This document shows positions 6,211 through 46,941 of a stretch of 64,000 bases of DNA, piece by piece. The notes beneath the pieces are model-generated. The model searched no databases and was not told where the DNA came from. It saw only the letters and a program-made list of their open reading frames with translations. The DNA lies in IMG/VR virus record IMGVR_UViG_3300009365_003824, positions 1 to 64,000 of that record; one strand, 5' to 3'. This DNA is from a virus. Numbering within the stretch: the stretch's first letter is position 1; each line of letters starts with the position of its first letter. A program made the translations under genes and the position numbers.

Positions 6211-7833
6211 ATGAAATCAATTATAGTCTGCGGTGGTGTCATCAGCGGAACTGGCAAAGGTATAGCAGCAGCATCTATCGGGCTGTTATTGAAATTAAGA
6301 GGTCAAAGTGTCCAATTAATTAAATTTGATCCATATTTGAACATCAATGCTGGTATTTTAGCTCCTCGTGAGCATGGGGAGTGCTTTCTGTGTGATGATG
6401 GCACAGAAACCGATTTAGATTTAGGCCATTATGAGCGAATTGTTGGGACCACAGTTTCCAAAGACAACATCTGCACATCTGGGACTATTTACAAAGAGTT
6501 GATTGAGGAACAAGAAGACGGCAAATACTTGGGGGACACCATTCAGGTGATCCCCCATGTTACTGACAAAATACAGAATCGCCTCTATAATTTAGGCAAA
6601 ACTTCTGACATTGTTATTGCTGAAATTGGCGGCACAGTAGGCGATACAGAATCGGGGCAGTTCTATCACGCTATAGCTAATTTTAAACAACGAAATTGGG
6701 ACGACTGCATCATTGCAATGGTCGCCCCGATACTTTGGATACCCACTATAAAAGAATTTAAAACAAAGCCCTTACAGGCTGCTGTGAAAGGCTTGCAGAG
6801 TTTTGGTATCCAACCAGAGATGTTGCTCTGTCGAGTGGACAGGCCGGTGCCTGACAATATATTAAATAAGGTTGCTAACCTGACCAACGTGCCCCGCGAG
6901 GCTGTGTTTGATGCCCCAGATGTTTCTACAATCTATAAGGTTCCCATTGAATTCTACAACAGGCATATTGATGATTTTGTTGCCGATAAATTTCGCATAA
7001 AAAGGACTGGTTGTAGAATCCACAAATATCGGGATTTAGTGGAAAAACATGCTGAAGTTACATCATGCGACGAAAGCGACACCCATGTATGCATTGGAAT
7101 TGTGGGTAAATATGAAAACTGCGATGAGGCTTACATTAGTCTAAAAGACGCCTTGTATCATGCAAGCGTAGCAAACGACATTAAGGTGGATATTAAATGG
7201 ATTAATGCAGAAACCCTTGAAAACTACAAGGACATGAGGGGGTTCAACAACCACTTTGGTGATGTAGATGGTGTGATTGTTCCTGGTGGTTTTGATGCGA
7301 GAGGGATAGAAGGCAAAATCAAGGCAACTAAATACTGTCGTGAAAAGAAGATCCCGTTTTTAGGTATTTGTTTAGGTTTGCAGTGTGCTGTAATTGAATA
7401 TGCTCGTTTAATGGGGGCAGAAACCGCCAATAGTCAAGAGTTCGATCCTGATACTGAGTTTCCTGTAGTTCATCTCATGGAAGAACAGAAGGCCGTCAAA
7501 AAGAAATCAGCTACAATGCGACTTGGAGCTTATGATTGTGCTTTAGCTAAAGACAGTCTTGCTCACGAGTTGTATAAAAAGAAAAACATTAGTGAAAGGC
7601 ACCGCCATAGATATGAAGTCAACGCTGATTTAGTCAATGAGTTTCCTGATTTTAACATTTCAGGATTGAATCCTCAAAGGAACCTAGTGGAGATCATGGA
7701 ACTAAAACGTGAGGTTCACCCTTATTTCATAGGGACGCAGGCTCATCCAGAGTTTAAAAGCAGATTAGACAAGCCAGCACCATTATTTAATGGTCTTGTG
7801 AAAGCAGCCATTCAAAAACGTAGAGAAGGTTAA
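6211..7833 (+). CDS. pyrG: CTP synthase
   Basis: GGVISGTGKG, ETDLDLGHYER, EIGGTVGD, KTKPLQ, GICLGLQ, ERHRHRYE, QAHPEF. Confidence 0.97.
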   Translation: MKSIIVCGGVISGTGKGIAAASIGLLLKLRGQSVQLIKFDPYLNINAGILAPREHGECFLCDDGTETDLDLGHYERIVGTTVSKDNICTSGTIYKELIEEQEDGKYLGDTIQVIPHVTDKIQNRLYNLGKTSDIVIAEIGGTVGDTESGQFYHAIANFKQRNWDDCIIAMVAPILWIPTIKEFKTKPLQAAVKGLQSFGIQPEMLLCRVDRPVPDNILNKVANLTNVPREAVFDAPDVSTIYKVPIEFYNRHIDDFVADKFRIKRTGCRIHKYRDLVEKHAEVTSCDESDTHVCIGIVGKYENCDEAYISLKDALYHASVANDIKVDIKWINAETLENYKDMRGFNNHFGDVDGVIVPGGFDARGIEGKIKATKYCREKKIPFLGICLGLQCAVIEYARLMGAETANSQEFDPDTEFPVVHLMEEQKAVKKKSATMRLGAYDCALAKDSLAHELYKKKNISERHRHRYEVNADLVNEFPDFNISGLNPQRNLVEIMELKREVHPYFIGTQAHPEFKSRLDKPAPLFNGLVKAAIQKRREG

Positions 7834-7844: not shown

Positions 7845-8408
7845 ATGACAATGCAATTTAAAGACTTTCTTCTGAATGAAAACAGGGTCTATTTGGGCCA
7901 AAAAATAGGCGATATTTTAAGCGCTGTGCATGATTTACAGCAAGATGAACCGGGTATGGGCGAGCGACACTATGTTCGATTTGCTGAGAAGGTGGTTACA
8001 GCGATCAGGAGGGTTCTGCATAGTCCTTGGCCTAGAAGTGAACAACAGTATTTAAAAGACTTGCAGAAAATAGGGGTAGCTTTAGCTAAGACGATTGACG
8101 AAAAAGGCGAATTAAAACAAATTATGCCTAGCATAAAGACGGAGTTAGAGCAATTATCTGGTAAATTAGGAATGCCTGTTAATCAAATGGGCGTGCAACA
8201 AGGTGCTGAACCAGCACAATTGCCTGATGAAACACCAGAAGGGGACACAGCCCCAGAGCAACAACAGCAACAACAGCAGCCGCCCAATCCTCCAATGGAA
8301 CCTCAAATAGGAGGTCAACCTCCTATGCCTGGGACACCAGGACAGCCGCCAATGCCTGGGCAAGGTCAGCCCCCTCAGCAACCACCAATGGGGCAACCTC
8401 AATTTTAA
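7845..8408 (+). CDS. capsid-targeting-like N-terminus protein with Pro/Gln-rich tail
   Basis: MTMQFKDFLLNE start; PPMPG/QQQ C-terminus. Confidence 0.75.
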   Translation: MTMQFKDFLLNENRVYLGQKIGDILSAVHDLQQDEPGMGERHYVRFAEKVVTAIRRVLHSPWPRSEQQYLKDLQKIGVALAKTIDEKGELKQIMPSIKTELEQLSGKLGMPVNQMGVQQGAEPAQLPDETPEGDTAPEQQQQQQQPPNPPMEPQIGGQPPMPGTPGQPPMPGQGQPPQQPPMGQPQF

Positions 8409-8417
8409 GGGGTTCCT

Positions 8418-9413
8418 ATGAAAGTGGTTTTAATTTTAGAGGGACTCAAGGGCGCATGTCCATTCTACAGATCCGTAGGCCCATTTAAGCGATTAGCCAA
8501 TAATATGGACCTAAAGGTTAGTGTTGTTGATATTTCTCAAGATGATAAACCTCTCTGGATGCACATAACAGATGCATCAGTGGTTTATTTTGAAAGACCA
8601 GTAACCCCTAAGATGCTAGAGTATTTTAGAGAAACAAGTGACATAGGAATTAAGACCTGGGTTGATTATGATGATAATTTAATGAATATACCTTCATGGA
8701 GAGCAGATGCAAGTCTGAATGTCCAACGAGGAAAGGTAATGAGAGAGTGTGCTAAATATGCTGATTTAGTGACTGTTTCAACCACTCCTTTAAAGAGAAT
8801 GTTTGATCGATTAGGTGAGACGGCACATGTGGTCCCTAATGCTTTTGATGATTTTCTTTTAAAAGATGGGTTTAAGATTTCTAACAAAAAAATGATTTTT
8901 TGGAGGGGTTCTGACACTCACGACAAAGACTTAGACATTCTTTTTGAAGCATACAGAAAAATTCACCCACTTCATAGTGATTGGTTATGGGTCGTAATTG
9001 GAGGAGGCGATCAATCATTCCTCAGAAACAAGAAGGGAACCATGTGTGTAGATTACAACCCTTCTTTGTTGGGCTATTTTAAAAAAACTCTAAATATAGG
9101 CCCAAGTATTTTGTTGTATCCCCTGGAAGATCACTTTTTTAATTATTGTAAATCAAATATAGCTTGGTTGGAAGCAACTTATTTTGGAGCAGTCACGGTG
9201 GCTCCTAATTTTTCAGAATGGAGCAAGAAAGGATGTATCCTAAACTATAAGGAACCCCAAGACATCCCAGAACGTATAATTAGGCTAATAGAAAATAGAG
9301 AATTAAGACACAGGCTGTATGTTAATTCTCGTAGGTTTATCAAAAAGAACTTGGTAATTGATGAAGTCAACAAAATAAGAAAGAGATTGTTAGGTGAATT
9401 ATGTCAAAATTAA
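8418..9413 (+). CDS. GT-B type glycosyltransferase
   Basis: DYDDNL, ADLVTVST, VVPNA, WRGS.TH..DL, PLEDHFFNYCKSNIAWLE. Confidence 0.8.
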   Translation: MKVVLILEGLKGACPFYRSVGPFKRLANNMDLKVSVVDISQDDKPLWMHITDASVVYFERPVTPKMLEYFRETSDIGIKTWVDYDDNLMNIPSWRADASLNVQRGKVMRECAKYADLVTVSTTPLKRMFDRLGETAHVVPNAFDDFLLKDGFKISNKKMIFWRGSDTHDKDLDILFEAYRKIHPLHSDWLWVVIGGGDQSFLRNKKGTMCVDYNPSLLGYFKKTLNIGPSILLYPLEDHFFNYCKSNIAWLEATYFGAVTVAPNFSEWSKKGCILNYKEPQDIPERIIRLIENRELRHRLYVNSRRFIKKNLVIDEVNKIRKRLLGELCQN

Positions 9414-10105
9414 CGTATGTGATTACTTATTACAATCAACCATTCATCGAAAAACAGCTAGAACTATGGTCTTCTTATCCCTCGGATGTTTTATCTCAAT
9501 TGGAATTTGTAATGGTGGATGATGGTTCTAAAACTAGACCATTGGCCCCCATAGTGAGACCCTATAAAAACAAACTTTCAATCAAGTTGTTTGTGATTAC
9601 TAAAGATATTTATTGGAACATCCCTGGTGCAATTAATTTGGGAATGTGCATGACTAATACTCCTTGGGCATTTCACGCAGACGTAGATAATTGGGTTGCA
9701 GCCGAGTCTATGTCTGAAATAATGGATGCTATAGAAAACGAGGAGAATGAATTATATGATTTTGTAGTTCATATAGGCGAAAGGGTGGCCAACAACACAT
9801 CTTCTTTTCTTTTGACTAGGGATTTGTTTTGGAAAATAGGGGGATATGACGAGGATTTTTCTGGACAATATGGACATGATGATATATATTTTAAATATGA
9901 ATGCGAATTTCGAGGACATAAATCTGTGCCTTTGCATGATATTAAAATAAATATGATATATGAAGGCAGAGTGGTTGAATTAGATAACCCGGAAGACAAA
10001 GAATCAGAACCTTCAAGACTGATGCTTCAAGACAAAAAAGAACCTTATAAACCCCATAGGCCCAAAAGGATTTTGAGGTTTCCGTGGAAGCAAATCATCC
10101 TTTAA
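9401..10105 (+). CDS. GT2/GT7-like glycosyltransferase
   Basis: VDDGS, DVD, FWKIGGYDEDFSGQYGHDD. Confidence 0.85.
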   Translation: MSKLTYVITYYNQPFIEKQLELWSSYPSDVLSQLEFVMVDDGSKTRPLAPIVRPYKNKLSIKLFVITKDIYWNIPGAINLGMCMTNTPWAFHADVDNWVAAESMSEIMDAIENEENELYDFVVHIGERVANNTSSFLLTRDLFWKIGGYDEDFSGQYGHDDIYFKYECEFRGHKSVPLHDIKINMIYEGRVVELDNPEDKESEPSRLMLQDKKEPYKPHRPKRILRFPWKQIIL

Positions 10106-10791
10106 ACCATTTTCAATTTGGTTTCTTGAAAGTCTCCAAATTCAAATATGCCTTCGTGAGTTTCATCGGCCTCTCTAAAGTTCACCTTTTTTTTCTGTTC
10201 GATATACCAATCAGCCCCATACCTGAACCTTAGAAATTCTTTGGCATTATTTGGTCCCCATAATTTCCTGCCAAACATCTCTACTTCTTTGCGACCTTGA
10301 ATGAATATTTCAGGGAAAGATTTATGAATGTTTAATCCATCCGAAGTAAGTTCTCTTGTTAATACATCTCTTTTCCAAAAGAACAAATCTACAGTCATGT
10401 GATTAGTGGGACTTCTGGGGATTCTAATTACAGTTTGTCCATGAATCTTTTCTTCAGCAGCGTTTTTAGACTTGTGAATAAACATTCCATAACCGTCTGC
10501 TTTAATTCGGTCCCTCAATCCTATTATTTTCTTTCTATCTGAATAAAACACTCCTAAGTCCCCATCGGTATCGTGAGGAATGTTTTTTCCTGTTCTTACA
10601 GCCCCTAGAAGCGTTCCAAAATCCAACCAATAGTGAATATTTTGTTCTTCAAATAAATCATGCAAGTAAAACAGCACATCCCTCAGATGATTTACACAAC
10701 AGGGGGGCATGACTCTTTTTCTATTGACCCTTGGCCAGTCTTTCTTTTCACATTTAGGCGTATCTAATCTACAACCTACTCTTTTTAGCAT
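10102..10791 (-). CDS. LicD/FKRP-family alditol- or choline-phosphotransferase 1
   Basis: GC-x6-C...PPCC, YWLDFGTLLGAVR, PHDTDGD, NHMTVDL; ATG 10791 follows upstream stop. Confidence 0.88.
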   Translation of the reverse strand: MLKRVGCRLDTPKCEKKDWPRVNRKRVMPPCCVNHLRDVLFYLHDLFEEQNIHYWLDFGTLLGAVRTGKNIPHDTDGDLGVFYSDRKKIIGLRDRIKADGYGMFIHKSKNAAEEKIHGQTVIRIPRSPTNHMTVDLFFWKRDVLTRELTSDGLNIHKSFPEIFIQGRKEVEMFGRKLWGPNNAKEFLRFRYGADWYIEQKKKVNFREADETHEGIFEFGDFQETKLKMV

Positions 10792-10792
10792 T

Positions 10793-11686
10793 TTAGAAAC
10801 CCAAAATTTCTCTTGTCCACCTTTCACCCAGATACTCCTTAGCAAAAGACCTCATGTTTCTAGCGTGTTCGTCATCGGCTGTCCTTATTTTATTCAAGTA
10901 AGCCGTAGCCTTACTGGTATCACCTATGCTAAGGTTAGCATTATATAGGTCCATAACCCTTTTGATGTGCCACGCCATGAAACTTTTAAATTGAGGATCT
11001 AACCTCTCTGGATTTGACATTGCCATACATAATGAATACACAGTAAATTCTAACATCTGCGTAACAGTTTCGCCTCTGCTTTGAATTTTCAAATCTATCC
11101 TTGTAGCTGAGCCATTTGTGTAGGCAATCCATTCATCACATATGTATAAAGGAGTATCCCCCCACGATCTAGCTTGTTGAACCATATAAAGATTGTATGA
11201 CATTCCTCTTAATTGTGGAGAAACATATTTAGCTGCTGCCTGCATGGTGGTTTTTGGCTCTTCCATAACAACAACATTATCATCCAGAACATAAAAAGCA
11301 TTAATTCTACGAGAGCTTTGCTCTCTAAAGTGGCTTCTTAATTTACTGGCTAACCCGTGCGAAGTCTCGTGTGCCCATGTGATACGGTCAGAATCTCTAT
11401 AAATGTGCCCTGCTGGCATATGAGATTCAATATCTGATAACACTTTTCCCAAACTACTATCCGCTTCTTTAACGGGTTGATAGGTTGAAAAGGTCGGCAC
11501 TGGAGTCTGCAATTCAGGCGGCGGTTGTTGTTGAGGCGGCACAGGCACCCCTGGAAGCGGGTGCTGCTGCACTGGCTGCTGTGATTGAAAGTCGCCTGTC
11601 TGAGCCGGTTGCGATGCACCATGAACGAAAAATAAAACCGATATGGCAAACGCTAGAACTAAAAACATCACCCTTCTATTGTTCAT
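10793..11686 (-). CDS. exported/membrane-anchored protein with HExxH (putative zinc peptidase)
   Basis: N-terminal hydrophobic segment, PQ linker, WAHETSHG, downstream DEW. Confidence 0.55.
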   Translation of the reverse strand: MNNRRVMFLVLAFAISVLFFVHGASQPAQTGDFQSQQPVQQHPLPGVPVPPQQQPPPELQTPVPTFSTYQPVKEADSSLGKVLSDIESHMPAGHIYRDSDRITWAHETSHGLASKLRSHFREQSSRRINAFYVLDDNVVVMEEPKTTMQAAAKYVSPQLRGMSYNLYMVQQARSWGDTPLYICDEWIAYTNGSATRIDLKIQSRGETVTQMLEFTVYSLCMAMSNPERLDPQFKSFMAWHIKRVMDLYNANLSIGDTSKATAYLNKIRTADDEHARNMRSFAKEYLGERWTREILGF

Positions 11687-11745
11687 ATCATCCTCCTTGT
11701 CTAAATATATTTATCCAGAAGGAGGATGTTTAACTACTTTATGTT

Positions 11746-12339
11746 ATGGACTTTGAAGGCATTAATTTCGATGATGTGATTGCTGACGCCGAGAAAAAGA
11801 AGAAAAAAAAGAAAAAAAAGAATTCCGGCGAAAAAGGCAAACGGGGTGAGAGAAACCTAGCGAAGGTTCTAAAAGAACGATTCGGATTCGAGTTTACTCG
11901 AACTGTTGGATCGGGCAATCGCTGGGGGCAGGTGTCATTTTTACCTCAGCACGCTACTGATACCTATTCAGGAGACATAGTTTGTCCTGAAAACTTTAAA
12001 TTTGTAATCGAATGCAAAGATGGGTATAATGACTTAGATTTGCATTTTTGCGTAGGTTCCAATAAGGGATACGCTAAAATTGATTCTTGGATAGAGCAAT
12101 CCATTGATGAAGCTAAACGAAGCGAAAGATTGCCTATAATTACTTGGAAGAAAGATTACAAACCTTGGGTAGCGCTTGTCCGAAAAATTGACCTACCTAT
12201 GCGCAGGAAGCCATATCTTGTAATCTGGAAGTCCTTCCACATGATATACAACGACTGGGCTGTGTTACCATTAACCGCTTTGTTAGAATTGCCAGACGAA
12301 TTCTGGTTTAAGGAAGCCAAGGGTGGCGAGGAATCCTGA
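11746..12339 (+). CDS. Hjc-type PD-(D/E)xK Holliday junction resolvase
   Basis: KGKRGERNLAK, SG, GDIV, VIECK; poly-Lys N-terminus. Confidence 0.8.
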   Translation: MDFEGINFDDVIADAEKKKKKKKKKNSGEKGKRGERNLAKVLKERFGFEFTRTVGSGNRWGQVSFLPQHATDTYSGDIVCPENFKFVIECKDGYNDLDLHFCVGSNKGYAKIDSWIEQSIDEAKRSERLPIITWKKDYKPWVALVRKIDLPMRRKPYLVIWKSFHMIYNDWAVLPLTALLELPDEFWFKEAKGGEES

Positions 12340-12661
12340 TAATTGTCCAATTTGTGGAACTTTTATGGAAATAATATGTACTGGGCACCAGCACAAAACA
12401 TGCCCATACATAGATGGCAGAACATATCCAGGCATTTGTTTCGTATGTTTTAATATCCCCAAAGTATGGGATATAACCTACGGAGAGGCCGAAGATGGTT
12501 CAGAAGATGTCTGGAAAGGCCCTTTTTGGGATCACAAGCATCTCCACACAGCAAAAGAACTCGTAGAAGATGGCACCACCGATGATATTGTGTGGGCCAA
12601 AAAAGCAGTTGCCGCAGTGAAGAAGAGAATCACAGCATCCAAAAAGGCAGGAAGATTATAG
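12323..12661 (+). CDS. Cys-rich hypothetical protein
   Basis: CPIC, CFVC; GTG start overlapping upstream gene. Confidence 0.6.
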   Translation: MARNPDNCPICGTFMEIICTGHQHKTCPYIDGRTYPGICFVCFNIPKVWDITYGEAEDGSEDVWKGPFWDHKHLHTAKELVEDGTTDDIVWAKKAVAAVKKRITASKKAGRL

Positions 12662-13882
12662 GTGGGTCACTCTTTTGTGTAGTCTTTTTTCGGCTTTGTA
12701 AAGCAATTCAAATTGATGCCTATATTGATAATACACAGTGGGGTTGTTTATTCTTAAAACAGTTTCGTCATTGTGTCTCAAGCCGGGGTGAGTATAATTA
12801 TAGGAGCCAGTCCAAACTATTCGGTGTTCATCTGTTTTTATTAATAGGAATTTATGATGCATCCTCCCACGCCAGTTATCTCGCACTTGGATTTCATCAT
12901 TTAACATATAAACTTCCTTGTTGTAATGCTCATTTCTAACAATTGCAAATGGTATTTTGTTCTCCCTAAGAAATGGAACGGTATTTTTTACGTTTTGCCA
13001 CTCATCACTTAGCAAGACTCGCACCTTAGATCCGCCTTCTTTGAATTTTAATAGGAACTCCCTCACTCTCCTTCTCGTGAAATAAGCCATAGCCACATCT
13101 ATGCGTGTTCGCTCCCCATCTGTTTTTTCATAAATCCTGTGCAGTTCTTTCTCAACTGGACAACTATCCCTTGGCATGAAATACGCTGCCGCAGGGGTTT
13201 CTATTGGGACAAGAGGCTCGAATCTGAATATGTTTAGATTGGGTCTGAGCTTTTTCTTGTTTTTTCTTAAATTGATGGTGTCTTGCAGTTCGTTCCAATG
13301 ATGAGAATATTTCGCGTAAATGTCTTTATCATCATAAATTACCACCATGTTATTAAATTGGTGTGTCTGGGTAATGTTAATATTGGCTGTGGTTTGTATG
13401 ATTACATATTTGCCTATTCCTTCCAATTCGGAAATGAGAAAGAATTTATCGTGCATGTAACCAGTTTTAGCCTCTACCTCAGCTTTGGCCATTTCTTTTC
13501 TTACTTCTGGATCATTAGTGCCAATGCGGGTGTCAATGATGACGTTTTTCTCATGGAAGGCAAGGTTGAACTTTTTTACTAAGGCAGGATGGTTGAATTC
13601 GTTGTATTTATCGAATATTATTTTAGTATCGCAATTTCTGGCTCTATCTACAAATGTTTGCGTAACAAAGTTAGGATTTCCTGGCTCGTCCTTCCATTTA
13701 TCCCTGTAATCCTTTTTAGGTAAACCTGTGTTATCGTTCCACATATAGATGGCGCAACGCACCGTAGCATCATGTGGAATACGAGAAAATAACTTTTCTA
13801 GCTCCACATACATGGAAAAATCTGGCTCGACTTCTTTATTTAACTTAGGTTTAGAAAAATAGGGGCCTAGAAACTTAACCAT
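12656..13882 (-). CDS. phospholipase D superfamily protein (two HxK half-sites)
   Basis: MHDKF and MHHKF, TGSYNYT, NDE; ATG 13882 chosen. Confidence 0.85.
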   Translation of the reverse strand: MVKFLGPYFSKPKLNKEVEPDFSMYVELEKLFSRIPHDATVRCAIYMWNDNTGLPKKDYRDKWKDEPGNPNFVTQTFVDRARNCDTKIIFDKYNEFNHPALVKKFNLAFHEKNVIIDTRIGTNDPEVRKEMAKAEVEAKTGYMHDKFFLISELEGIGKYVIIQTTANINITQTHQFNNMVVIYDDKDIYAKYSHHWNELQDTINLRKNKKKLRPNLNIFRFEPLVPIETPAAAYFMPRDSCPVEKELHRIYEKTDGERTRIDVAMAYFTRRRVREFLLKFKEGGSKVRVLLSDEWQNVKNTVPFLRENKIPFAIVRNEHYNKEVYMLNDEIQVRDNWRGRMHHKFLLIKTDEHRIVWTGSYNYTHPGLRHNDETVLRINNPTVYYQYRHQFELLYKAEKRLHKRVTHL

Positions 13883-13901
13883 AATCTGGGTATATATTAT
13901 T

Positions 13902-14306
13902 ATGAAAATAGGTTTTACTGTTGGAGTCTGGGACTTGTGGCACGATGGACACGTCAATGTCCTTGAACAATCCAAAGAACATTGTGACTACCTCGTAGTA
14001 GGTATAATGACCGACTACTGGGTTCGTGTCCAAAAAGGACACGACAGACCCTTCGAGTCTCTTATTAAAAGAATAGTCGGTCTCAGAAAATGCAAATACG
14101 TTGATAAAATTGTTATTTTAGACACGATGGATATGACTCCTTACCTCCAAATAGCAGATGTTTGGATAAAAGGGGAAGATCAATCCAATATGCGTCCAGA
14201 ATTGTGGCCGAATGAAGTCTATATTAAGAGGACTCCTGATGTTTCAACTACCGAACTAGGAGAAAGATTCAGAAAACCTGGAGAGCCTCTGAAAGAAGAT
14301 TTTTAA
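13902..14306 (+). CDS. TagD-like (glycerol-3-phosphate type) cytidylyltransferase
   Basis: GVWDLWHDGH (HxGH), LVVGI.TD, KG.D, RTPDVSTT. Confidence 0.88.
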   Translation: MKIGFTVGVWDLWHDGHVNVLEQSKEHCDYLVVGIMTDYWVRVQKGHDRPFESLIKRIVGLRKCKYVDKIVILDTMDMTPYLQIADVWIKGEDQSNMRPELWPNEVYIKRTPDVSTTELGERFRKPGEPLKEDF

Positions 14307-14311
14307 ATCAT

Positions 14312-15046
14312 ATGTTAAAAGTATTACGCGGTTGTACCGTTGCCACAAGGAAGTGCCCTTACCATAATTACGGGCTTGGAGTAAAAGCTCGGAATCCAGA
14401 ATACCTGAAAAGGAAACGGGGCAACGAACCATATATCTACACTAGAGAAATGCCTCCTTGCTGCATCAAGCATTGCAGGGAGTTAATTTGGTATACTATA
14501 GATTTATTGGAAGAAGAAGGAATCACGTATTGGGCTGATTTTGGAACGCTTCTAGGTGCTGTTCGAGAAGGAAGAACAGTTCCACATGATACAGATGCCG
14601 ATTTGTGTGCATTTGTAGAGGATCGACCCAAAATATTAGATTTAAAAGATAGAGTGCAAAAAGATGGCTTTGCTATGGGTATAAAAAGACCAATTCGCCC
14701 TGGTGATGACCATATTAAAATATGCCGTAGTGGCAAGAACCACATGACACTAGACATATTTTTCTGGAGACATGATAATCACAAGAACATCTATAAAAGC
14801 CCTGGCCTCAACGCACCTAAATCATTTCCTGATTGGTGGGTAGAAGAATTGACCAGGGTAGAGATTTTCGGCAAGAAAATGTGGGCACCAAGAGACCCAG
14901 AGCACTTTTTACAAATGAGATTCGGTTCCGCTTGGAAAAAACCGAAAGATGAAAAAGTGCATGATAGTGATGCCATTAGATCCCATGTCTATGGCTTCAC
15001 GTATGCCGACAAAAGAGGTTGGAAAAAAAAAGTAAAACTCACCTAA
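14312..15046 (+). CDS. LicD/FKRP-family alditol- or choline-phosphotransferase 2
   Basis: GC-x6-C...PPCC, YWADFGTLLGAVR, PHDTDAD, NHMTLDI. Confidence 0.88.
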   Translation: MLKVLRGCTVATRKCPYHNYGLGVKARNPEYLKRKRGNEPYIYTREMPPCCIKHCRELIWYTIDLLEEEGITYWADFGTLLGAVREGRTVPHDTDADLCAFVEDRPKILDLKDRVQKDGFAMGIKRPIRPGDDHIKICRSGKNHMTLDIFFWRHDNHKNIYKSPGLNAPKSFPDWWVEELTRVEIFGKKMWAPRDPEHFLQMRFGSAWKKPKDEKVHDSDAIRSHVYGFTYADKRGWKKKVKLT

Positions 15047-16874: not shown

Positions 16875-17119
16875 TATTTCTTCTTTTTCCTTTCACGCTC
16901 CATAGCTTTGTGTTCTTTTTCTTTCTGTTCAACAAACAAATGTATCAACTCTTTTCGCATATAAACAGGTATTCTTAAAACTTGTTCAAATCCGCCCATT
17001 CCAGGCATATGATAACATAGAAAGAAAATTTCATGTAGCCATCTTTTGAAAAAAGTTAGACTAGACTTTTCCCAATTTACTCCTCCTCCTTCCTCTTGTA
17101 TTGTGGGAAGAAAAAACCC
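16874..17119 (-). CDS. gp51-like tail/baseplate assembly domain reached by -1 frameshift (not in ORF track)
   Basis: 81 open codons in the -1 frame from GGGTTTT to a TAA overlapping ATG 16874; HEIFFLCYHM...IPVYMRKELI pattern. Confidence 0.7.
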   Translation of the reverse strand, partial: GFFLPTIQEEGGGVNWEKSSLTFFKRWLHEIFFLCYHMPGMGGFEQVLRIPVYMRKELIHLFVEQKEKEHKAMERERKKKK

Positions 17120-18042
17120 GCTTCTAGCGGCATATCAATGTTGAAGTCTGCTGTACAGGAAGGACAAACTAAATCAACTTCAGTGTCTACGCCAAACGGC
17201 GGATCGTTGACTAAACTTCTTAAATATGATACGTCCGAAATGGGAAGTCGCTTCAGAAGGATGGTAAGGGAATTGGCATCATCAATTTCACCAATATTGT
17301 TCAACAGTTGAGCGGTTCTATAAGTCAAAGTATCATCGGTTCCGGTTGCTCCGAATTGACGAACTCTTTTTTCTCTGTATGCGTTGACTTTGTTTTCATC
17401 TCTACCTGTGGACAATTTATAGGCAAACTTGTAGTTTGTTTTAGGGAGTGTCCCCATCATGTTGGCTGAGCCAAAGTCTTCGGGACAATAATTAACTTCT
17501 AGTGCATTCAGATTAATGACTTGGCCACCTTTGGCATCACACTCTGGGCACTTAACTTCTACTTCATACTCGTTGGAATAAGAAATACCACGCAACCAAA
17601 TCAGCAAGAAAGTTCTGTCAATAGTTAGAAGATCCAATGGGTTATAATCTTCTTGACTGCACTTTCTGAAGATCATGTCGATGGCTTCGTTTTTCTTTAC
17701 ATAACGAGGCGTAGCTAAAATTTCTTCTTCGGCACCTGTCATGGGTCTTACGTGTAAGACTCCACCACTTAGAACGCTGTCATCCGAGTAAAATACGCCT
17801 CTGGATGGAAGCACTACTTCTTCATAATTTAAAACCTGCAAGTCTTTTAACATATCTTGCAAAGGACCAGTCGGTGCTGTTGTTGGTCCCATAGGCGGTC
17901 TTTGTTTGGCAGGTTGTTGAGCAGGAGGAGCAGCTTCGCCACCCCCTTCAGTCTTCTCAGCTTGAACTTGTTTCATAGCTTGTTGAAAAGCCGGTGTTGG
18001 GTTTCCTTGAATGCTCATACCACCATCGTTTGCATCTGGCAT
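17077..18042 (-). CDS. T4 gp26-like baseplate hub/tail assembly protein
   Basis: LPSRG..Y, RPMTGAEEEIL, DRTFLLIWLRGISY, CPEC and CPSC, C-terminal FF. Confidence 0.85.
   Translation of the reverse strand: MPDANDGGMSIQGNPTPAFQQAMKQVQAEKTEGGGEAAPPAQQPAKQRPPMGPTTAPTGPLQDMLKDLQVLNYEEVVLPSRGVFYSDDSVLSGGVLHVRPMTGAEEEILATPRYVKKNEAIDMIFRKCSQEDYNPLDLLTIDRTFLLIWLRGISYSNEYEVEVKCPECDAKGGQVINLNALEVNYCPEDFGSANMMGTLPKTNYKFAYKLSTGRDENKVNAYREKRVRQFGATGTDDTLTYRTAQLLNNIGEIDDANSLTILLKRLPISDVSYLRSLVNDPPFGVDTEVDLVCPSCTADFNIDMPLEAGFFFPQYKRKEEE
17113..17119 (-). other. slippery heptamer G-GGT-TTT (programmed -1 frameshift site)
   Basis: In-register X XXY YYZ at codons 308-310 of the gp26-like gene. Confidence 0.75.
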
Positions 18043-20306: not shown

Positions 20307-20335
20307 ATTCTATGCCATTCCTACTATTTTATCAA
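20307..20335 (-). promoter_or_regulatory. sigma70-type promoter
   Basis: TTGATA-17 nt-TAGAAT. Confidence 0.7.
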
Positions 20336-23843: not shown

Positions 23844-24830
23844 ATGAGTTGTCGAGTTATATCATTTAATCGTTGGAAAAACGCTCCTGATACGCATAAG
23901 AAGGTGGAAAGTGGGGATAAACACTTTCTATTTTATGATAGAGATGAGCAAAAACCCATATTTTGTCCGGTGAAATTAGCCGAAGTAGAATCATCTCCTT
24001 TCTTAGGTTCTCAGCCCCAACACAAGCCGTGGGAAGGCAATTGTGATAAGAAACCTTGGGAGTATGAGGTCACAGCCGTCATTCCATCTTTAAATACGCC
24101 TGAGACGCTCCCTGTGTGCATAGAGCTACTTAGACTACAAACAGTGCGTCCATTTATTATGATTATAGATACGGGCAGCACGGGCGAAGAATGGGAAGCT
24201 ACTCAAAAATTAATTGCACCCGATGTAGAGGTTCATTCTATTAAGTTGCATGGTGTACGACACCCATCAGATTATCCTGCAATGGCTATGGATGCTGCTT
24301 TTGCCATGTGTAGGACTGAATATCTTTTTGCAACACACGCAGACGTATTTTTAAGGCGTCAAGATTTCGTGGAAGATTTACTTAAACTCTGCAAGATTGA
24401 ATCCCCTGTTGTAGGTTATCAATTAAGTCCACGAAACCACAAGGATTGGAAAGGTATGTGTAGTCATACAGCGTCTATGTATCACATTCCCACAATGGAC
24501 AGAATAGGTTTTGGCTGGAATCTAAGGAGATTGTGTAATCAGTATGGGATAGAAGATTATACTCCTGTGCCAAGCAGACCTAATTGGCCGGATACAGAGA
24601 TATTAGGTAATTACATTTTAAAAAAACATGACATCACTCCTCACCTTGTAGGCGAGGAAGAGAACAACGAAAGAACTTTAGATGAAAATTTAGACCACAT
24701 AAGAAGTTATACATCCCTAAAATTATATGGAGGCGAAAATTTCGCCAGAGCAAAGGATCTTTTTAATAAAGCTAAAGAAAACGCTGAAAAAAGAATAGAA
24801 AAATGGAAAAAAATTTCTCGTGCGCAGTAA
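23844..24830 (+). CDS. GT2-like glycosyltransferase (paralog of 32480-33316)
   Basis: VTAVIP, IIDTGS, ATHAD, WPDTE. Confidence 0.75.
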   Translation: MSCRVISFNRWKNAPDTHKKVESGDKHFLFYDRDEQKPIFCPVKLAEVESSPFLGSQPQHKPWEGNCDKKPWEYEVTAVIPSLNTPETLPVCIELLRLQTVRPFIMIIDTGSTGEEWEATQKLIAPDVEVHSIKLHGVRHPSDYPAMAMDAAFAMCRTEYLFATHADVFLRRQDFVEDLLKLCKIESPVVGYQLSPRNHKDWKGMCSHTASMYHIPTMDRIGFGWNLRRLCNQYGIEDYTPVPSRPNWPDTEILGNYILKKHDITPHLVGEEENNERTLDENLDHIRSYTSLKLYGGENFARAKDLFNKAKENAEKRIEKWKKISRAQ

Positions 24831-24870
24831 ATACATAGGGTTTTTTCTACTTAATCTTCGAGGAGGGCTT

Positions 24871-25458
24871 ATGGCAGTTGAATATCTAAACAATAAGGTA
24901 TTCGAGAGAACTATTCAGGAATTTCAAGTGTCGAAGAGAGAGAAAAGAAAGTACGAATTGATAATGGAAGACCTCCAAGGGTCGAAAGAAAGGCGCATAA
25001 AAAGAAGCAATCAAAATAAGAGGCGAGGCAAGCTACTTGCAACACTCTTAGACCAGAAGGAAGAGGAATATGGCTCTGTGTTGGGTGATTTTAATGTGTT
25101 GCAGGACAATTTAGCCCTGGCATTTTATACTCTGAGTGAAAACCTAGTGAAATATGCCCAGTTTCAGTTCATAGAGGAAGATGATGCTATTCAGGAAGGT
25201 GTAGTGATTTGTTTTGAGAAAATCGACAGATTCAATCCTGATAAAGGCAAGGCTTTTAACTATATGACCACTTGTATTTTAAACCACTTTAGGCAACTTT
25301 ACAGAACGGCAAGAAACTACCAGGAATTAAAAAAGAAGTATCTCGCATTTATCCAACAGGAAATTGACCGAATTATAATTCACAATGGCAAACAAACCTC
25401 TTTATGTAACAACACTACACCAGTTCCAGTAGGAAATAGTAGACAAAGAAATGATTAA
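24871..25458 (+). CDS. T4 gp55-like late-transcription sigma factor
   Basis: YLNNK, DDAIQEGV..CFEKIDRFNPDK.KAFNYMT..I.N.FRQ; no region 4; SD AGGAGG. Confidence 0.85.
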   Translation: MAVEYLNNKVFERTIQEFQVSKREKRKYELIMEDLQGSKERRIKRSNQNKRRGKLLATLLDQKEEEYGSVLGDFNVLQDNLALAFYTLSENLVKYAQFQFIEEDDAIQEGVVICFEKIDRFNPDKGKAFNYMTTCILNHFRQLYRTARNYQELKKKYLAFIQQEIDRIIIHNGKQTSLCNNTTPVPVGNSRQRND

Positions 25459-42534: not shown

Positions 42535-43458
42535 ATGGCACAAAAAAGCAACCCTAATCCAAAGAAACCAGTCGTTGAAAAAGAAATCAGCGAGAAGGAA
42601 ATCATCTTAGATGCCGTCCTACACAGTGCTTCCGAAGGTATTGTAATTGCCGATCAAGATGGCAAATTTATTTTATGGAATGATGCTGCTAGAGAAATCG
42701 TTGGAATGGGTTCCCAAGATGTAGATCCAGATAAATACCCAGCAATATATGGCACTTACAAAGATGAAGAATGCACCAATCTATTCAAAGCGGAAGAGTT
42801 GCCATTATTTCGGGCTATTCGAGGCGATGTATTCACCAATGTTGAAATGTTTCTAAAAAACGACCATGTTGACTTTCGTTGCATTCTGTTGAGTGGTCGC
42901 CCATATTTTGGCAAAAATGGAAAAAGAGGCGGCGTTTTAATGTTCAGAGACGTTACAGATGTATGTAAGGCTAAACAAATTGAACAATATTACAAGAAGT
43001 TTTACCATTCTGTTCCTATATCGTTTTTTACTACTTCAATAAAAGACGGAACATTTATCCGAGCCAATCCTTACTGTGTTCGTATGTTGGGATTTGAAAC
43101 ATTTGAAGAGATGGCCAGGAGGATAAAGTCCACAGATTTATATGTCGATCTTGATGATCGCAAAGTGCTGATTGAAGAGCTTCTAAATAACCATAAAGTG
43201 ACGGCTCATCCAGTGCATATTAAGTTGTTAAATGGAGAAGAAAGGTGGGTCGAAGTAACAGCCAGCCTTTGCAGGTGTGGTAAATTCCCTATGTGTGATA
43301 AAGGATGCGGTGCGTGTTTTGAGGGTTTGTTGTTTGATATTACCAAAAAGAAAAAAATGGAAGATGAGTTGTCGCAATTAAGAGAAGCTCGTGTGCGAGC
43401 TATGAAAGATATTAATTTAGCCATTGAAGAAAAATTAAAAACTTACCAAGGCAAATAA
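42535..43458 (+). CDS. tandem PAS-PAS protein without output domain
   Basis: EGIVIAD.DG.FILWN.AA, FRDVT; DGTFIRANP...MLGF, NGEERWV, FDITKKK..E. Confidence 0.85.
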   Translation: MAQKSNPNPKKPVVEKEISEKEIILDAVLHSASEGIVIADQDGKFILWNDAAREIVGMGSQDVDPDKYPAIYGTYKDEECTNLFKAEELPLFRAIRGDVFTNVEMFLKNDHVDFRCILLSGRPYFGKNGKRGGVLMFRDVTDVCKAKQIEQYYKKFYHSVPISFFTTSIKDGTFIRANPYCVRMLGFETFEEMARRIKSTDLYVDLDDRKVLIEELLNNHKVTAHPVHIKLLNGEERWVEVTASLCRCGKFPMCDKGCGACFEGLLFDITKKKKMEDELSQLREARVRAMKDINLAIEEKLKTYQGK

Positions 43459-45056: not shown

Positions 45057-45397
45057 TAAGTCACACTGATAAACCTTGGGGATACGAAGAGCTTTTAGAG
45101 CACAATGATCACTATGTCCTCAAAAGAATTTTTATGAAAGAGGGCCACTGTTGCAGTTTGCAGTATCACAAGGAAAAACATGAAACGATATATATTGTAT
45201 CAGGAGAAATGAAGTTTGTTCATGGAGATGCTGAGGATGCATTGCAAACTGATGTTTTAGTCGAAGGTCAATTTCGTGCGGTGCCACCCAACAAAATACA
45301 CAGGATGTGCGGAAAAACGGATTGTCTTTATTTGGAGGCATCCACCCCGCAATTAGAAGATTTAGTTAGGGTAGAGGATTTTTACAATAGAAAATGA
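45053..45397 (+). CDS. cupin (mannose-6-phosphate isomerase type II C-terminal-like)
   Basis: KPWGYE, SLQYH..KHET, HRM, EASTPQLEDLVR.ED. Confidence 0.88.
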   Translation: MISHTDKPWGYEELLEHNDHYVLKRIFMKEGHCCSLQYHKEKHETIYIVSGEMKFVHGDAEDALQTDVLVEGQFRAVPPNKIHRMCGKTDCLYLEASTPQLEDLVRVEDFYNRK

Positions 45398-46941
45398 AGG
45401 TATTAATTACTACAAGCGGCCTGGGCACTAGACTAGGCGACCTCACCAAATATACCAACAAGGCTTTAATTAAACTGGGCGATAAAGCTGTAATATCTCA
45501 CATAATTGACACATATCCTTATGCTGATTTTGTGATAACTTTGGGGTATTTGGGCGATTATGTAAAACAATATTTAGAAATAGCACATCCAGACAGGAAT
45601 TTTGAGTTTGTTTATGTCGATCCATATAGCGGCCCCGGAAGCGGTCTTATCAAGTCTCTGTCTTTTGCTAGAAATCTGCTTCAAACACCATTCATATTCC
45701 ACGCTTGCGACACCATAGTTAATTACAAGCCCAACCTCACTTCAAATTGGATGGCTTGCGTTGAATCAGAACAATCAGATGCTTTTAGAACCGTTCGCAC
45801 AACAAATAACAAGATTACCAGAATAAATGAAAAGGGTGAAATTGATTACGACTTTGCTTACATAGGTGTTGCTGGAATAATAGATTACCGCCTATTCTGG
45901 GAGATTGTGGATTCTCTGTTGACTGGCTACATTGAGGATTCTAGTGATTGTCATATTTTGATGGAAATGTTAAATACCGTTTCCATTAATTTAGTAAAAA
46001 TTGATGATTGGGATGATACGGGTGGTGTCGAAAGATTAAATAAAGCCAAACAAAAACACCCCAATAAATACAATGTGTTGGACAAACCCGAAGAGGCCAT
46101 ATATTTCGTAAACAATACAGTAATTAAGTTTTTCCGAAATTCCACTATTTGCAAAAACAGGGTAACGAGAGCATCTGCATTAAGAACACTGGTTCCAGAA
46201 ATAACATCCTCTACAGAAAACTTTTACAAATACCCCTTAGCTAATGGTGTTTTGTTAGCCAGCGACATCACACAAGAAAGGATTTCTAACTTAGTGGAGT
46301 GGGCCAAACAAAACCTTTGGCACCCGGTTTCTGTAGATTCTAAGACTTTCAAAGGCAAGTGTTATGAATTTTACAAAGAAAAAACAAAGGGCAGAATAGC
46401 CAAATTTATAAAAAACTCTAACATGCCAGATAGAGAGTGTGTGATCAATAATCATACAGTGCCTAGCTGTGAATCGCTATTAAGCCAAGTAGATTGGGAG
46501 TTACTATGTGAAACAGAACCAACTTGTTTTCATGGTGATTTCATATTAGACAACATCCTCTTCACACTGGATTCATTTGTTTTATTAGATTGGAGGCAGG
46601 ATTTTGCAGGAGACGTTGTAGCGGGAGATAAATATTATGATTTGTCTAAATTAAACCATAATTTAACGCTTAATCACGATATTTTGACACAGGGGTTGTT
46701 TACAATTGATATAACTGATAAAGCAATCAAATGCGATGTGCTTAGAAGCCACAACATGGTGCAATGCCAACAGTTTTATCTTGATGCACTGGCAGCAAAT
46801 GGTTTTAACCTCAACAAGATTGAGGTTCTTACGCCTCTAATTTGGTTGAACATGTCACCACTACACACCTATCCATTGAATAATTTCCTGTTTTATTTCG
46901 GCAGATATAATTTGTGGAGAGCATTATGCGGGAACAAATAG
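45394..46941 (+). CDS. sugar-phosphate nucleotidyltransferase fused to APH/choline-kinase-like phosphotransferase
   Basis: SGLGTRL...NKAL N-terminus; HGDFILDNI, LLDWRQ, YYDLSKL C-terminus. Confidence 0.85.
   Translation: MKVLITTSGLGTRLGDLTKYTNKALIKLGDKAVISHIIDTYPYADFVITLGYLGDYVKQYLEIAHPDRNFEFVYVDPYSGPGSGLIKSLSFARNLLQTPFIFHACDTIVNYKPNLTSNWMACVESEQSDAFRTVRTTNNKITRINEKGEIDYDFAYIGVAGIIDYRLFWEIVDSLLTGYIEDSSDCHILMEMLNTVSINLVKIDDWDDTGGVERLNKAKQKHPNKYNVLDKPEEAIYFVNNTVIKFFRNSTICKNRVTRASALRTLVPEITSSTENFYKYPLANGVLLASDITQERISNLVEWAKQNLWHPVSVDSKTFKGKCYEFYKEKTKGRIAKFIKNSNMPDRECVINNHTVPSCESLLSQVDWELLCETEPTCFHGDFILDNILFTLDSFVLLDWRQDFAGDVVAGDKYYDLSKLNHNLTLNHDILTQGLFTIDITDKAIKCDVLRSHNMVQCQQFYLDALAANGFNLNKIEVLTPLIWLNMSPLHTYPLNNFLFYFGRYNLWRALCGNK

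What the first reader, a model, noticed from the sequence alone, without database searches (positions are those of the whole stretch)
10102..15046. Two phage LicD enzymes with the animal FKRP zinc-finger signature beside a CDP-alditol cytidylyltransferase
Seen: both paralogs start GC-x6-C (GCRLDTPKC, GCTVATRKC), then MPPCC just before the YW.DFGTLLGAVR/PHD.D.D nucleotidyltransferase core, then S..NHM.(V/L)D(L/I), FP and P....FL..R(Y/F)G. Established: human FKRP, the CDP-ribitol-dependent ribitol-5-phosphate transferase of dystroglycan, has a four-Cys zinc-finger loop (GCNKETTRC...PPCC) followed by SESNHLHVDL, FPEHF and PNN..RFL..KFG; typical bacterial LicD lacks this loop. A TagD-type cytidylyltransferase is directly upstream of paralog 2 and CTP synthase is nearby. 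Inference: the phage makes CDP-glycerol or CDP-ribitol and uses two FKRP-type enzymes, perhaps in tandem like fukutin/FKRP, to put alditol-phosphate on virion or host glycans. This is my best candidate for an undescribed system, and it bears on the origin of FKRP.
Basis: partly seen in the sequence, partly recalled or inferred. Interest (0 to 1): 0.88.

Follow-up and report, generated by a model that had tools for sequence, protein, structure and literature searches.

The report
Phage FKRP-type LicD phosphotransferase module
A large marine T4-like phage carries two small enzymes built like the catalytic half of the human muscular-dystrophy protein FKRP, beside the enzyme that probably makes their activated donor; they most likely add glycerol-phosphate-type groups to a sugar chain, and the zinc-finger trait that looked animal-specific is in fact common in bacteria.

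Summary
Two LicD-family ORFs, 10102-10791(-) and 14312-15046(+), are 44% identical. Their only real match among solved structures is human FKRP (E 6.5e-22 and 1.1e-16; model Z 22 over FKRP 283-487). They keep FKRP's four zinc-binding cysteines and its catalytic aspartates.

The C-x6-C...CC signature is not an animal trait. About 100 of the 150 best cluster representatives carry it, including chromosomal genes from six bacterial phyla. One of those sits in a phosphonate (AEP) cluster, so the zinc finger does not imply a ribitol donor. The phage proteins lack FKRP's stem domain and its ribitol loop. FKRP's position in the subfamily tree is unresolved, and a control grouping fits as well as phage+FKRP.

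The 134-aa cytidylyltransferase-like gene is neither a TagD nor an HldC equivalog. It belongs to a distinct phage clade that, in five of six non-redundant loci, lies next to a LicD or a TagF-like gene. These phages encode no ribitol, choline or phosphonate precursor genes, so CDP-glycerol is the best guess for the donor, by elimination.

The acceptor is unknown; it could be a host envelope glycan or the virion. The window holds about 20 glycan genes. Verdict: a new phage member of a known kind of module, of moderate interest.

The parts
10102..10791 (-). LicD paralog 1 (229 aa): stand-alone FKRP-type zinc-finger LicD phosphotransferase with no stem domain, TM segment or signal peptide
   Evidence: Pfam LicD 34.8 bits. 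FKRP E 6.5e-22, with all four zinc-ligand Cys aligned. AF2 model pLDDT 82.6; VIA-align Z 22, rmsd 2.3-2.9 A, model 1-204 = FKRP 283-487. Groups with P0002-P0004 in the tree.
14312..15046 (+). LicD paralog 2 (244 aa): second FKRP-type zinc-finger LicD, with a longer loop between C-x6-C and CC (34 residues against 16)
   Evidence: Pfam LicD 32.4 bits. FKRP E 1.1e-16. 44% identical to paralog 1. Lies in a different subclade of the phage clade. In related phages, the single LicD next to the NTase is about equally similar to both paralogs.
13902..14306 (+). Small HxGH nucleotidyltransferase (134 aa, PF01467): probable synthase of the LicDs' CDP-activated donor
   Evidence: PF01467 48.7 bits. Below the cut-offs of both TagD (45.4 against 165.4) and RfaE domain II (67.6 against 181.5). 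Forms a distinct six-member clade (SH-aLRT 99) whose members adjoin a LicD (4), a TagF-like gene (1) or neither (1). Only PF01467 gene in the 106 kb record. Ends 5 nt before paralog 2.
12656..13882 (-). Two-HKD phospholipase-D-family protein (about 408 aa), divergently transcribed 19 nt from the NTase; role unknown
   Evidence: PLDc_2 87 bits in two stretches. The PLD(-)/NTase(+)/LicD(+) arrangement is conserved in two other viral contigs at 42-45% identity. The Atlas gives only generic bacterial PLD clusters. No PDB sequence hit.
10793..11686 (-). 297-aa protein with an N-terminal hydrophobic segment, a P/Q-rich linker and an HETSH (HExxH-like) motif; its stop codon abuts the start of LicD paralog 1
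   Evidence: ORF list and translation. No Pfam family. The link to LicD1 is by position only.
8418..10105 (+). Overlapping GT1-family and GT2-family glycosyltransferase genes, convergent on LicD paralog 1
   Evidence: Glycos_transf_1 27.6 bits and Glycos_transf_2 35.6 bits. In the complete phage L097 the order is a 360-aa ORF that I read as GT1-like (not scanned), a 247-aa ORF that I read as GT2-like (not scanned), LicD, then NTase, all co-directional.
6211..7833 (+). CTP synthase (PyrG); could raise the CTP supply but sits with the nucleotide-metabolism genes
   Evidence: NF003792 654 bits, TIGR00337 634 bits. Adjacent to ribonucleotide reductase. Any link to the module is inference only.

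Best explanation
The module adds a phospho-alcohol decoration to a glycan. The 134-aa HxGH nucleotidyltransferase joins CTP to a phospho-alcohol taken from host metabolism. That substrate is most likely sn-glycerol-3-phosphate, which would give CDP-glycerol. The two soluble zinc-finger LicD enzymes then use an NTase-fold, two-metal mechanism (three Asp before the core plus a fourth Asp) to transfer the phospho-alcohol onto hydroxyls of a glycan. The phage's own glycosyltransferases help build that glycan.

The C4 zinc loop sits over the active site, as in FKRP. The conserved Lys at FKRP's Arg295 position suggests the acceptor carries an anionic group, possibly a phosphate.

Shown here: family membership, FKRP-like fold, conserved catalytic and zinc-ligand residues, and conserved NTase-LicD gene linkage.
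Inferred: identity of the donor, and that the NTase uses CTP.
Unknown: whether the acceptor is a host envelope intermediate or virion proteins, and whether the two paralogs act on different sites or one after the other.
For: LicD and FKRP identity: (Z 22; only FKRP aligns with model residues 1-31, the zinc loop).

Conservation: the four Cys, Thr11 and Asp74/76/78/135 are invariant across the 17 aligned phage-clade sequences, and the Cys are invariant in a 35-sequence alignment with 23% mean column identity. Lys or Arg at the Arg295 position occurs in 17 of 17 phage-clade proteins.

Linkage: the NTase gene abuts a LicD gene in the window (5 nt), in L094 and L095 and in L097 (ATGA overlap). In L096 it overlaps the stop codon of a PF04464 TagF-like gene.

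Placement of the NTase: references that pass the NCBIfam cut-offs put HldE domain II with the HldD-linked viral NTases, while the window's clade lies elsewhere.

Donor by elimination: no PEP mutase, choline kinase or IspD/TarI in the window's record, in two complete related phages or in a fourth record that is 62% complete. A LicD-family enzyme that uses CDP-glycerol is already known (Cps7C, PMC11666461), and CDP-glycerol is reported to compete with CDP-ribitol at fukutin and FKRP (PMC11982090, citing Imae 2018).

Glycan context: at least nine GT genes plus UGD, an RmlA-like gene, an epimerase, sulfotransferases and a methyltransferase in the window.
Against: The NTase passes no curated cut-off, and its best profile score is to RfaE domain II (ADP-heptose) rather than TagD. 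The deep split in the NTase tree is weak (support 60), and the window's clade is not sister to TagD.

The PF04464 hit in L096 is modest (39 bits) and overlaps other GT-B families. L092 and L093 have the NTase without any recognisable phosphotransferase nearby.

The window's record is only about 21% of the genome by CheckV's estimate, so precursor genes could lie elsewhere. LicD donors are diverse (choline, ethanolamine, ribitol, glycerol, and probably AEP), and nothing in the LicD sequences fixes the donor. No experiment or expression data exist.
Confidence: 0.6

Rival explanations
1. One reading: the phage makes CDP-ribitol, and the two enzymes act one after the other like fukutin and FKRP to build a tandem ribitol-phosphate on a glycan.
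For: FKRP is the closest solved relative. The basic residue at the Arg295 position, which in FKRP binds the phosphate of the first ribitol-phosphate, is conserved. Two paralogs are present.
Against: FKRP's ribitol-interacting loop LDHRQ (433-437) reads S-D-G-L-N in the phage proteins. No IspD/TarI-type CDP-ribitol synthase occurs in the window's record or in related complete phages. To my knowledge no PF01467 enzyme makes CDP-ribitol. Fukutin itself has no zinc finger, so the pair is not a fukutin/FKRP analogue. The complete 527 kb relative has a single LicD. A zinc-finger LicD in bacteria sits in a phosphonate cluster.
Confidence: 0.07
2. The architecture is as in the best explanation, but the donor carries another head group: CDP-ethanolamine, CDP-choline or a CMP-phosphonate such as CMP-AEP. 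The result would be a zwitterionic decoration.
For: The NTase's best PDB sequence hit is ethanolamine-phosphate cytidylyltransferase at 56.8 bits, ahead of TagD at 43.8. Classical LicDs use CDP-choline, and Mf1 also uses CDP-ethanolamine. The zinc-finger LicD in L017 adjoins a PF01467-PEP-mutase fusion and a TPP-dependent decarboxylase (PMC6697681).
Against: The phage records contain no PEP mutase or choline kinase, and two of them are complete genomes. Free phosphocholine and phosphoethanolamine are not general bacterial metabolites (my own knowledge). The TagF-like partner in L096 points to a polyol-phosphate donor. The PEP-mutase-fused NTases fall outside the window's clade.
Confidence: 0.2
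3. The small NTase is an HldC-type heptose-1-phosphate adenylyltransferase that serves the window's HldD-like epimerase and GT9 heptosyltransferase-like gene. Its position next to LicD is coincidental, and the LicDs draw on a host CDP-alcohol pool.
For: The best NCBIfam score is to rfaE_dom_II at 67.6 bits. The window encodes an ADP-heptose 6-epimerase-like protein (204 bits) and a GT9. It is the only PF01467 gene found in the record. Thirty of the 69 non-redundant NTases extracted from 80 viral loci lie next to an HldD-like gene.
Against: Genuine HldE domain II references cluster with the HldD-linked viral NTases and not with the window's clade. A score of 67.6 bits is at the cross-hit level: genuine TagDs score 53-65 bits on the same model. 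The HldD-like gene is 41 kb away, whereas LicD2 is 5 nt away. The NTase has the RT..(V/I)STT C-terminal motif typical of cytidylyltransferases (motif assignment from my own knowledge). Five of the clade's six non-redundant loci adjoin a CDP-alcohol transferase.
Confidence: 0.1

Closest known systems
Human FKRP (fukutin-related protein; PDB 6KAJ-6KAN), a CDP-ribitol:ribitol-5-phosphate transferase
   Same: LicD/NTase-fold catalytic domain. The C4 zinc-finger loop aligns on ligands C289, C296, C317 and C318. Asp360/362/364/416 are conserved. Thr293 is matched, and Arg295 is matched by Lys. About 30% identity, Z 22 over FKRP residues 283-487.
   Different: The phage proteins have no N-terminal stem domain, which FKRP needs for dimerisation and acceptor binding, and no membrane anchor. 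The ribitol loop is not conserved and the C-terminal segment differs. They are cytoplasmic phage proteins of 229-244 aa, against a 495-aa Golgi enzyme. The donor is probably not CDP-ribitol.
Prokaryotic zinc-finger LicD subfamily (unnamed; found here in Actinomycetota, Acidobacteriota, Thermodesulfobacteriota, Krumholzibacteriota, Gemmatimonadota and Campylobacterota)
   Same: The same C-[TS]-x-x-[TS]-x-[RK]-C ... P-x-CC signature immediately before the LicD core. They form one clade against Cys-less LicDs (99/96).
   Different: The phage clade is a separate, well-supported branch (100/99) with a longer zinc loop: median 17 residues between motifs, against 12-13 in bacteria and 20 in FKRP. Bacterial members occur in O-antigen/capsule-like and phosphonate clusters.
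Cps7C of Actinobacillus pleuropneumoniae, a LicD-family CDP-glycerol-dependent glycerol-phosphate polymerase (PMC11666461)
   Same: A LicD-family NTase domain that uses a CDP-polyol donor and is reported to be homologous to FKRP. It is the best functional precedent for the mechanism proposed here.
   Different: Cps7C carries an N-terminal TPR domain, and that paper does not mention zinc. Whether it has the four Cys was not tested here. It belongs to a bacterial capsule system, not a phage.
Classical LicD phosphocholine transferases (S. pneumoniae LicD1/LicD2, H. influenzae LicD, M. fermentans Mf1)
   Same: The same Pfam family and catalytic Asp motif. They are paired with a cytidylyltransferase that makes the CDP donor.
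   Different: They lack the zinc-finger loop (for example the Haemophilus locus L055 and P0014-P0020). Their donor synthase is LicC (NTP_transf_3 fold) with LicA kinase, not a PF01467 enzyme.
TagD (glycerol-3-phosphate cytidylyltransferase) and HldC/HldE domain II (heptose-1-phosphate adenylyltransferase)
   Same: The same PF01467 HxGH fold and a similar size of about 130 aa. The window's NTase has the HxGH motif and an RT..VSTT motif.
   Different: It scores far below both curated cut-offs and forms its own clade, outside both the TagD and the HldE reference groups.
Giant-virus LicD proteins (Mimiviridae, Marseilleviridae and relatives)
   Same: Virus-encoded LicD-fold proteins, some fused to glycosyltransferases. 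Foldseek E 1e-13 to 1e-9.
   Different: Only 17-25% identical. The three that were tested lack the zinc motif and fall outside the phage clade.

Membership tests
LicD family (PF04991) | Pfam model hit above the gathering score | tested here: met
   34.8 and 32.4 bits against 22.6. Only the N-terminal part of the model is matched.
LicD family (PF04991) | NTase-fold catalytic acidic residues (D-x-D-x-D after the G[ST]LLG strand, plus a later Asp) | tested here: met
   DTDGD and DTDAD, plus the VDL/LDI Asp. These residues are invariant in the phage clade and align with FKRP Asp360/362/364/416.
FKRP orthologue | C4 zinc-finger loop (C289, C296, C317, C318) | tested here: met
   All four Cys align by sequence in paralog 1 and are invariant across the subfamily. 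The model aligns to FKRP from residue 283. Actual zinc binding, and Cys-Cys distances in the model, could not be measured.
FKRP orthologue | Arg295, essential for binding the acceptor's phosphate | tested here: inconclusive
   Replaced by Lys in both paralogs. The position is basic in 17 of 17 phage-clade proteins. Functional equivalence was not tested.
FKRP orthologue | N-terminal stem domain that mediates dimerisation and acceptor recognition | tested here: not met
   The proteins are 229 and 244 aa and begin 5-6 residues before the first zinc-ligand Cys. The model aligns only to FKRP 283-487.
FKRP orthologue | Ribitol-interacting loop Leu433-Gln437 | tested here: not met
   LDHRQ aligns with S-D-G-L-N in paralog 1. 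The phage clade conserves G-L-N-x-x-K instead.
FKRP orthologue | Exclusive common ancestry with animal FKRP | tested here: inconclusive
   The free trees group the phage clade with nine metagenomic proteins (98/95) and leave FKRP apart. The AU test does not reject phage+FKRP (p 0.54-0.65), nor a control of FKRP plus an actinobacterial/acidobacterial clade (p 0.57).
TagD, glycerol-3-phosphate cytidylyltransferase (TIGR01518) | Score above the NCBIfam equivalog cut-off | tested here: not met
   45.4 bits against 165.4. Genuine TagDs score 167-175 bits.
TagD, glycerol-3-phosphate cytidylyltransferase (TIGR01518) | HxGH and RTxGISTT-type motifs | tested here: met
   WHDGH and RTPDVSTT are present. 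These motifs are shared with other cytidylyltransferases, so they do not reveal the substrate.
HldC / RfaE domain II (TIGR02199) | Score above the cut-off, and clustering with genuine HldE domain II | tested here: not met
   67.6 bits against 181.5. The HldE references group with the HldD-linked viral NTases (support 90-93) and not with the window's clade.

The most novel reading that the evidence does not exclude
The phage uses its roughly 20 glycan genes to build a glycan on its own virion or on another phage-specified structure. The two FKRP-type enzymes then act in sequence, helped by the phosphate-binding Lys in the zinc loop, to add a polyol-phosphate unit. That would be the first polyol-phosphate glycoconjugate made by a bacteriophage and a prokaryotic-virus counterpart of the dystroglycan ribitol-phosphate step.
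Probability: 0.12. Interest if true: 0.75.

Novelty: new member of a known kind. Interest (0 to 1): 0.45.

Why it matters
There are three reasons.

1. The FKRP structure paper states that the zinc-finger loop is conserved only in FKRP orthologues. The searches here show that it defines a large, mostly prokaryotic and phage LicD subfamily. FKRP's catalytic domain is therefore one long branch of a microbial radiation. Soluble proteins of about 230 aa with no stem domain are available as minimal models for studying the zinc loop and disease-relevant positions such as Thr293, Arg295 and Cys318.

2. No cultured phage among 50,697 records has this enzyme type. A phage-encoded CDP-alcohol synthase with matching transferases, set among about 20 glycan genes, points to phospho-alcohol decoration of glycans as part of large-phage biology. 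Such decoration could affect adsorption, superinfection or recognition of the virion.

3. The small NTase defines a clade separate from TagD and HldC. Its substrate can be tested directly.

Tried and rejected
The neighbourhoods of P0006, P0009 and P0012 could not be read, so linkage was tested on IMG/VR loci instead.
- The AU test on the full 134-row tree did not finish in about 860 s on one CPU. It was replaced by a 52-row subsample.
- The T4 late-promoter motif TATAAATA occurs 3 times against 4.5 expected by chance, and none lies near the module, so there is no clue to timing.
- tblastn of both LicDs against cultured phages gave no match at 1e-5 and one 42-residue fragment at 2e-2.
- The PLD-like protein has no PDB sequence hit and only generic PLD clusters in the Atlas.
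- The cluster look-up of the nine nearest non-phage relatives returned only metagenomic records. One was auto-named 'fukutin-related protein'.
- Sequencing runs: no RNA holder is listed. The strong DNA holders are marine metagenomes from a single study, which may be the source of the window.
- The scan's own notes hold no look-alike of LicD1 in other windows.
- The 515-aa NTP_transf_3 protein (45394-46941) was considered as a LicC/TarI-like donor synthase. Its weak hits are all to sugar-1-phosphate nucleotidyltransferases, so it was set aside.
- Complex prediction was not used, because no claim is made that the two paralogs bind each other.


Full report
**What is there.** The window is part of a 105,941-base IMG/VR virus record that CheckV rates as about 21% complete. 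It is a T4-like myovirus: it has a tail sheath, tail tube gp19, a baseplate hub, RNR and an SbcC-like protein. The same DNA occurs in marine metagenomes from a single study. Its nearest cultured relatives by tail sheath are only 29-39% identical, so the host is unknown.

Paralog 1 most likely starts at the ATG at 10791, giving 229 aa, as in database protein P0001. The two are 44% identical over 195 residues, and both pass Pfam's LicD threshold.

**The resemblance to FKRP is genuine.** phmmer against every PDB sequence finds human FKRP as the only strong hit (6.5e-22 and 1.1e-16). In paralog 1 the alignment places G-C-R-L-D-T-P-K-C on FKRP's G288-C296 and P-P-C-C on C317/C318. The FKRP structure paper names exactly these four Cys as the zinc ligands (PMC6965139). 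Asp360/362/364 and Asp416 are matched too.

An AlphaFold model built on 17 homologues (pLDDT 82.6, pTM 0.82) aligns to FKRP with Z 22 and rmsd 2.3-2.9 A over 180-189 residues, model 1-204 against FKRP 283-487. Other NTase-fold proteins such as LnuA and ANT(2'') align only from model residue 32 onward, so they do not cover the zinc loop. FKRP is, however, the only solved LicD-family structure, so being the top hit says little about specific kinship.

**The zinc finger is not an animal signature.** An exhaustive HMMER search of 1.84 billion cluster representatives gave 318 hits at E<=1e-10. About 100 of the best 150 carry C-x6-C followed by CC just before the LicD core. A scan of one genome per prokaryotic species found the motif in chromosomal genes of Actinomycetes/Solirubrobacterales, Acidobacteriota, Desulfobacterales, Krumholzibacteriia, Gemmatimonadales and Sulfurovum, on contigs of up to 580 kb.

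Across 100 such sequences, the FKRP Thr293 position is Thr or Ser in 92%. The Arg295 position is Arg or Lys in 71% overall, and in all 17 phage-clade and all 4 animal sequences. The paper's statement that the loop is 'conserved in only FKRP orthologues' is therefore too narrow. I found no paper that describes this prokaryotic subfamily, although IMG's pipeline already labels one member 'fukutin-related protein'.

**Phylogeny.** Genuine animal FKRPs were recovered from the search (P0159 scores 693 bits against 6KAJ over its full length). In a 134-row tree and in a carefully searched 52-row tree, the zinc-finger LicDs separate from Cys-less LicDs (99/96). The phage-type proteins form one clade (100/99), nested with nine metagenomic proteins (98/95). 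Animal FKRP is a separate long branch (stem 1.1-1.8) in a polytomy of mostly bacterial lineages.

AU tests do not reject an exclusive phage+FKRP clade (p 0.65 and 0.54). They also do not reject a control in which FKRP is joined to an actinobacterial/acidobacterial clade (p 0.57). FKRP's place is therefore unresolved, and no specific link to phages is shown.

The two window paralogs lie in different subclades, so the duplication is old. A complete 527 kb relative has only one LicD.

**These proteins are not FKRP orthologues.** They lack the stem domain that FKRP needs for dimerisation and acceptor recognition, and they have no membrane anchor. The ribitol-interacting loop LDHRQ is replaced by S-D-G-L-N.

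The zinc finger does not predict the donor either. In a Desulfobacteraceae genome a zinc-finger LicD is followed by a PF01467-PEP-mutase fusion and a TPP-dependent decarboxylase. This is the signature of cytidylyl-activated phosphonate tailoring (PMC6697681). In Sulfurovum, three LicDs sit in tandem beside a Wzx-type flippase.

**The nucleotidyltransferase.** The 134-aa gene that ends 5 nt before paralog 2 is a PF01467 enzyme with HxGH and RT..VSTT motifs. It passes no curated threshold: rfaE_dom_II 67.6 against 181.5, TagD 45.4 against 165.4. Genuine TagDs score 53-65 bits on the RfaE model, and genuine HldEs score 46-53 bits on the TagD model, so the window's scores are at cross-hit level.

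ADP-heptose is a real rival, because the window also encodes an ADP-heptose-6-epimerase-like protein (204 bits) and a GT9. Thirty of the 69 non-redundant NTases extracted from 80 viral loci lie beside an HldD-like gene. In a tree that includes curated references, however, HldE domain II groups with those HldD-linked NTases (support 90-93). The window's NTase belongs to a separate six-member clade (SH-aLRT 99).

The members of that clade are arranged as follows:
- the window, L094 and L095: conserved PLD(-)/NTase(+)/LicD(+);
- L097, a complete 45.8 kb phage: a 360-aa ORF, a 247-aa ORF, LicD, then NTase, co-directional with an ATGA overlap; I read the first two as glycosyltransferases but did not scan them;
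- L096: the NTase overlaps the stop codon of a PF04464 TagF-like gene;
- L092 and its duplicate L093: no recognisable partner.

So the clade pairs with two unrelated families of CDP-alcohol phosphotransferase, which argues for a CDP-alcohol product.

**Which alcohol.** PEP mutase, choline kinase and IspD/TarI are absent from the window's record, from two complete phage genomes that carry this NTase clade with a LicD, and from a fourth record that is 62% complete. The substrate should therefore be a general host metabolite, and sn-glycerol-3-phosphate is the obvious candidate. TagF-like enzymes use CDP-glycerol or CDP-ribitol, and a LicD-family CDP-glycerol polymerase (Cps7C) has been described (PMC11666461). 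CDP-glycerol is thus the best guess, at roughly even odds. It rests on elimination and gene association, not on sequence determinants.

**Context and target.** An earlier scan note claimed many glycan genes in this window, and I confirmed most of them:
- GT1 at 8418;
- GT2 at 9401, 22722, 23844, 32480, 48267, 48793 and 62015;
- GT9 at 60496;
- UGD at 20335;
- sulfotransferase-like genes at 22144 and 61392;
- a methyltransferase at 44298;
- a cupin/PMI-like gene at 45053;
- a 515-aa sugar-phosphate NTase at 45394;
- a HAD phosphatase at 47911;
- an RmlA-like gene at 49891;
- an epimerase at 55388.

The LicDs have no signal peptide or TM segment, so they act in the cytoplasm. That fits either lipid-linked envelope intermediates or virion proteins, and nothing here decides between the two. 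Timing could not be inferred.

**Verdict.** This is a phage-borne member of a widespread but undescribed zinc-finger branch of the LicD family. It is coupled to a distinct small cytidylyltransferase-like clade and most likely installs glycerol-phosphate-type groups on a glycan. It is not an FKRP orthologue, does not indicate ribitol chemistry, and does not by itself illuminate FKRP's origin beyond showing that FKRP's catalytic domain belongs to a microbial radiation.

Noticed in passing
window 10793-11686 (-): A 297-aa protein with an N-terminal hydrophobic segment, a P/Q-rich linker and an HETSH (HExxH-like) motif. It has no Pfam family, and its stop codon abuts the start of LicD paralog 1. 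It could be a secreted or membrane-anchored metallopeptidase-like protein.
   Followed up: no
window 55388-56305 (-) and 60496-61401 (+); viral loci L104-L171: The window has an ADP-heptose-6-epimerase-like gene and a GT9 heptosyltransferase-like gene. Separately, 30 of the 69 non-redundant NTases extracted from 80 IMG/VR loci lie directly beside an HldD-like epimerase and cluster with genuine HldE domain II. Phage-encoded ADP-heptose modules therefore look common.
   Followed up: partly
L017:422-4650 (Desulfobacteraceae MAG): A zinc-finger LicD is followed by a cytidylyltransferase-PEP-mutase fusion, a TPP-dependent decarboxylase and a further 378-aa gene. This looks like a phosphonate (AEP) tailoring cluster that uses an FKRP-type transferase.
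   Followed up: partly
L032:5800-8028 (Sulfurovum MAG): Three LicD-family genes lie in tandem downstream of a Wzx-type flippase gene; the first has the zinc finger and the other two do not. Multiple LicD paralogs in one glycan cluster also occur in bacteria.
   Followed up: no
L004/L094 (IMGVR_UViG_3300005613_000001, 527,112 bases): A viral contig that CheckV rates as complete, at 527 kb, shares the PLD/NTase/LicD module at 45-70% protein identity. The window's phage may belong to a lineage of very large phages, consistent with its own 21% completeness estimate at 106 kb.
   Followed up: no
window 7845-8408, 10793-11686, 17077-18042: Several otherwise unrelated proteins, including a baseplate-hub-like protein, carry long Pro/Gln-rich low-complexity stretches. 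Whether these are glycosylation sites is unknown.
   Followed up: no
window 42535-43458, 24820-25458, 56505-57197, 58991-60058: The window also holds a PAS-domain protein, a protein like sigma-70 region 2, a Prim-Pol primase-polymerase and a subtilase. These are unusual accessory genes for a T4-like phage.
   Followed up: no
P0258 / P0195 (metagenomic proteins): A zinc-finger LicD from the sister group of the phage clade (the P0031 cluster) and a 71%-identical NTase homologue both list a longest contig of 18,114 bases.
   Followed up: no
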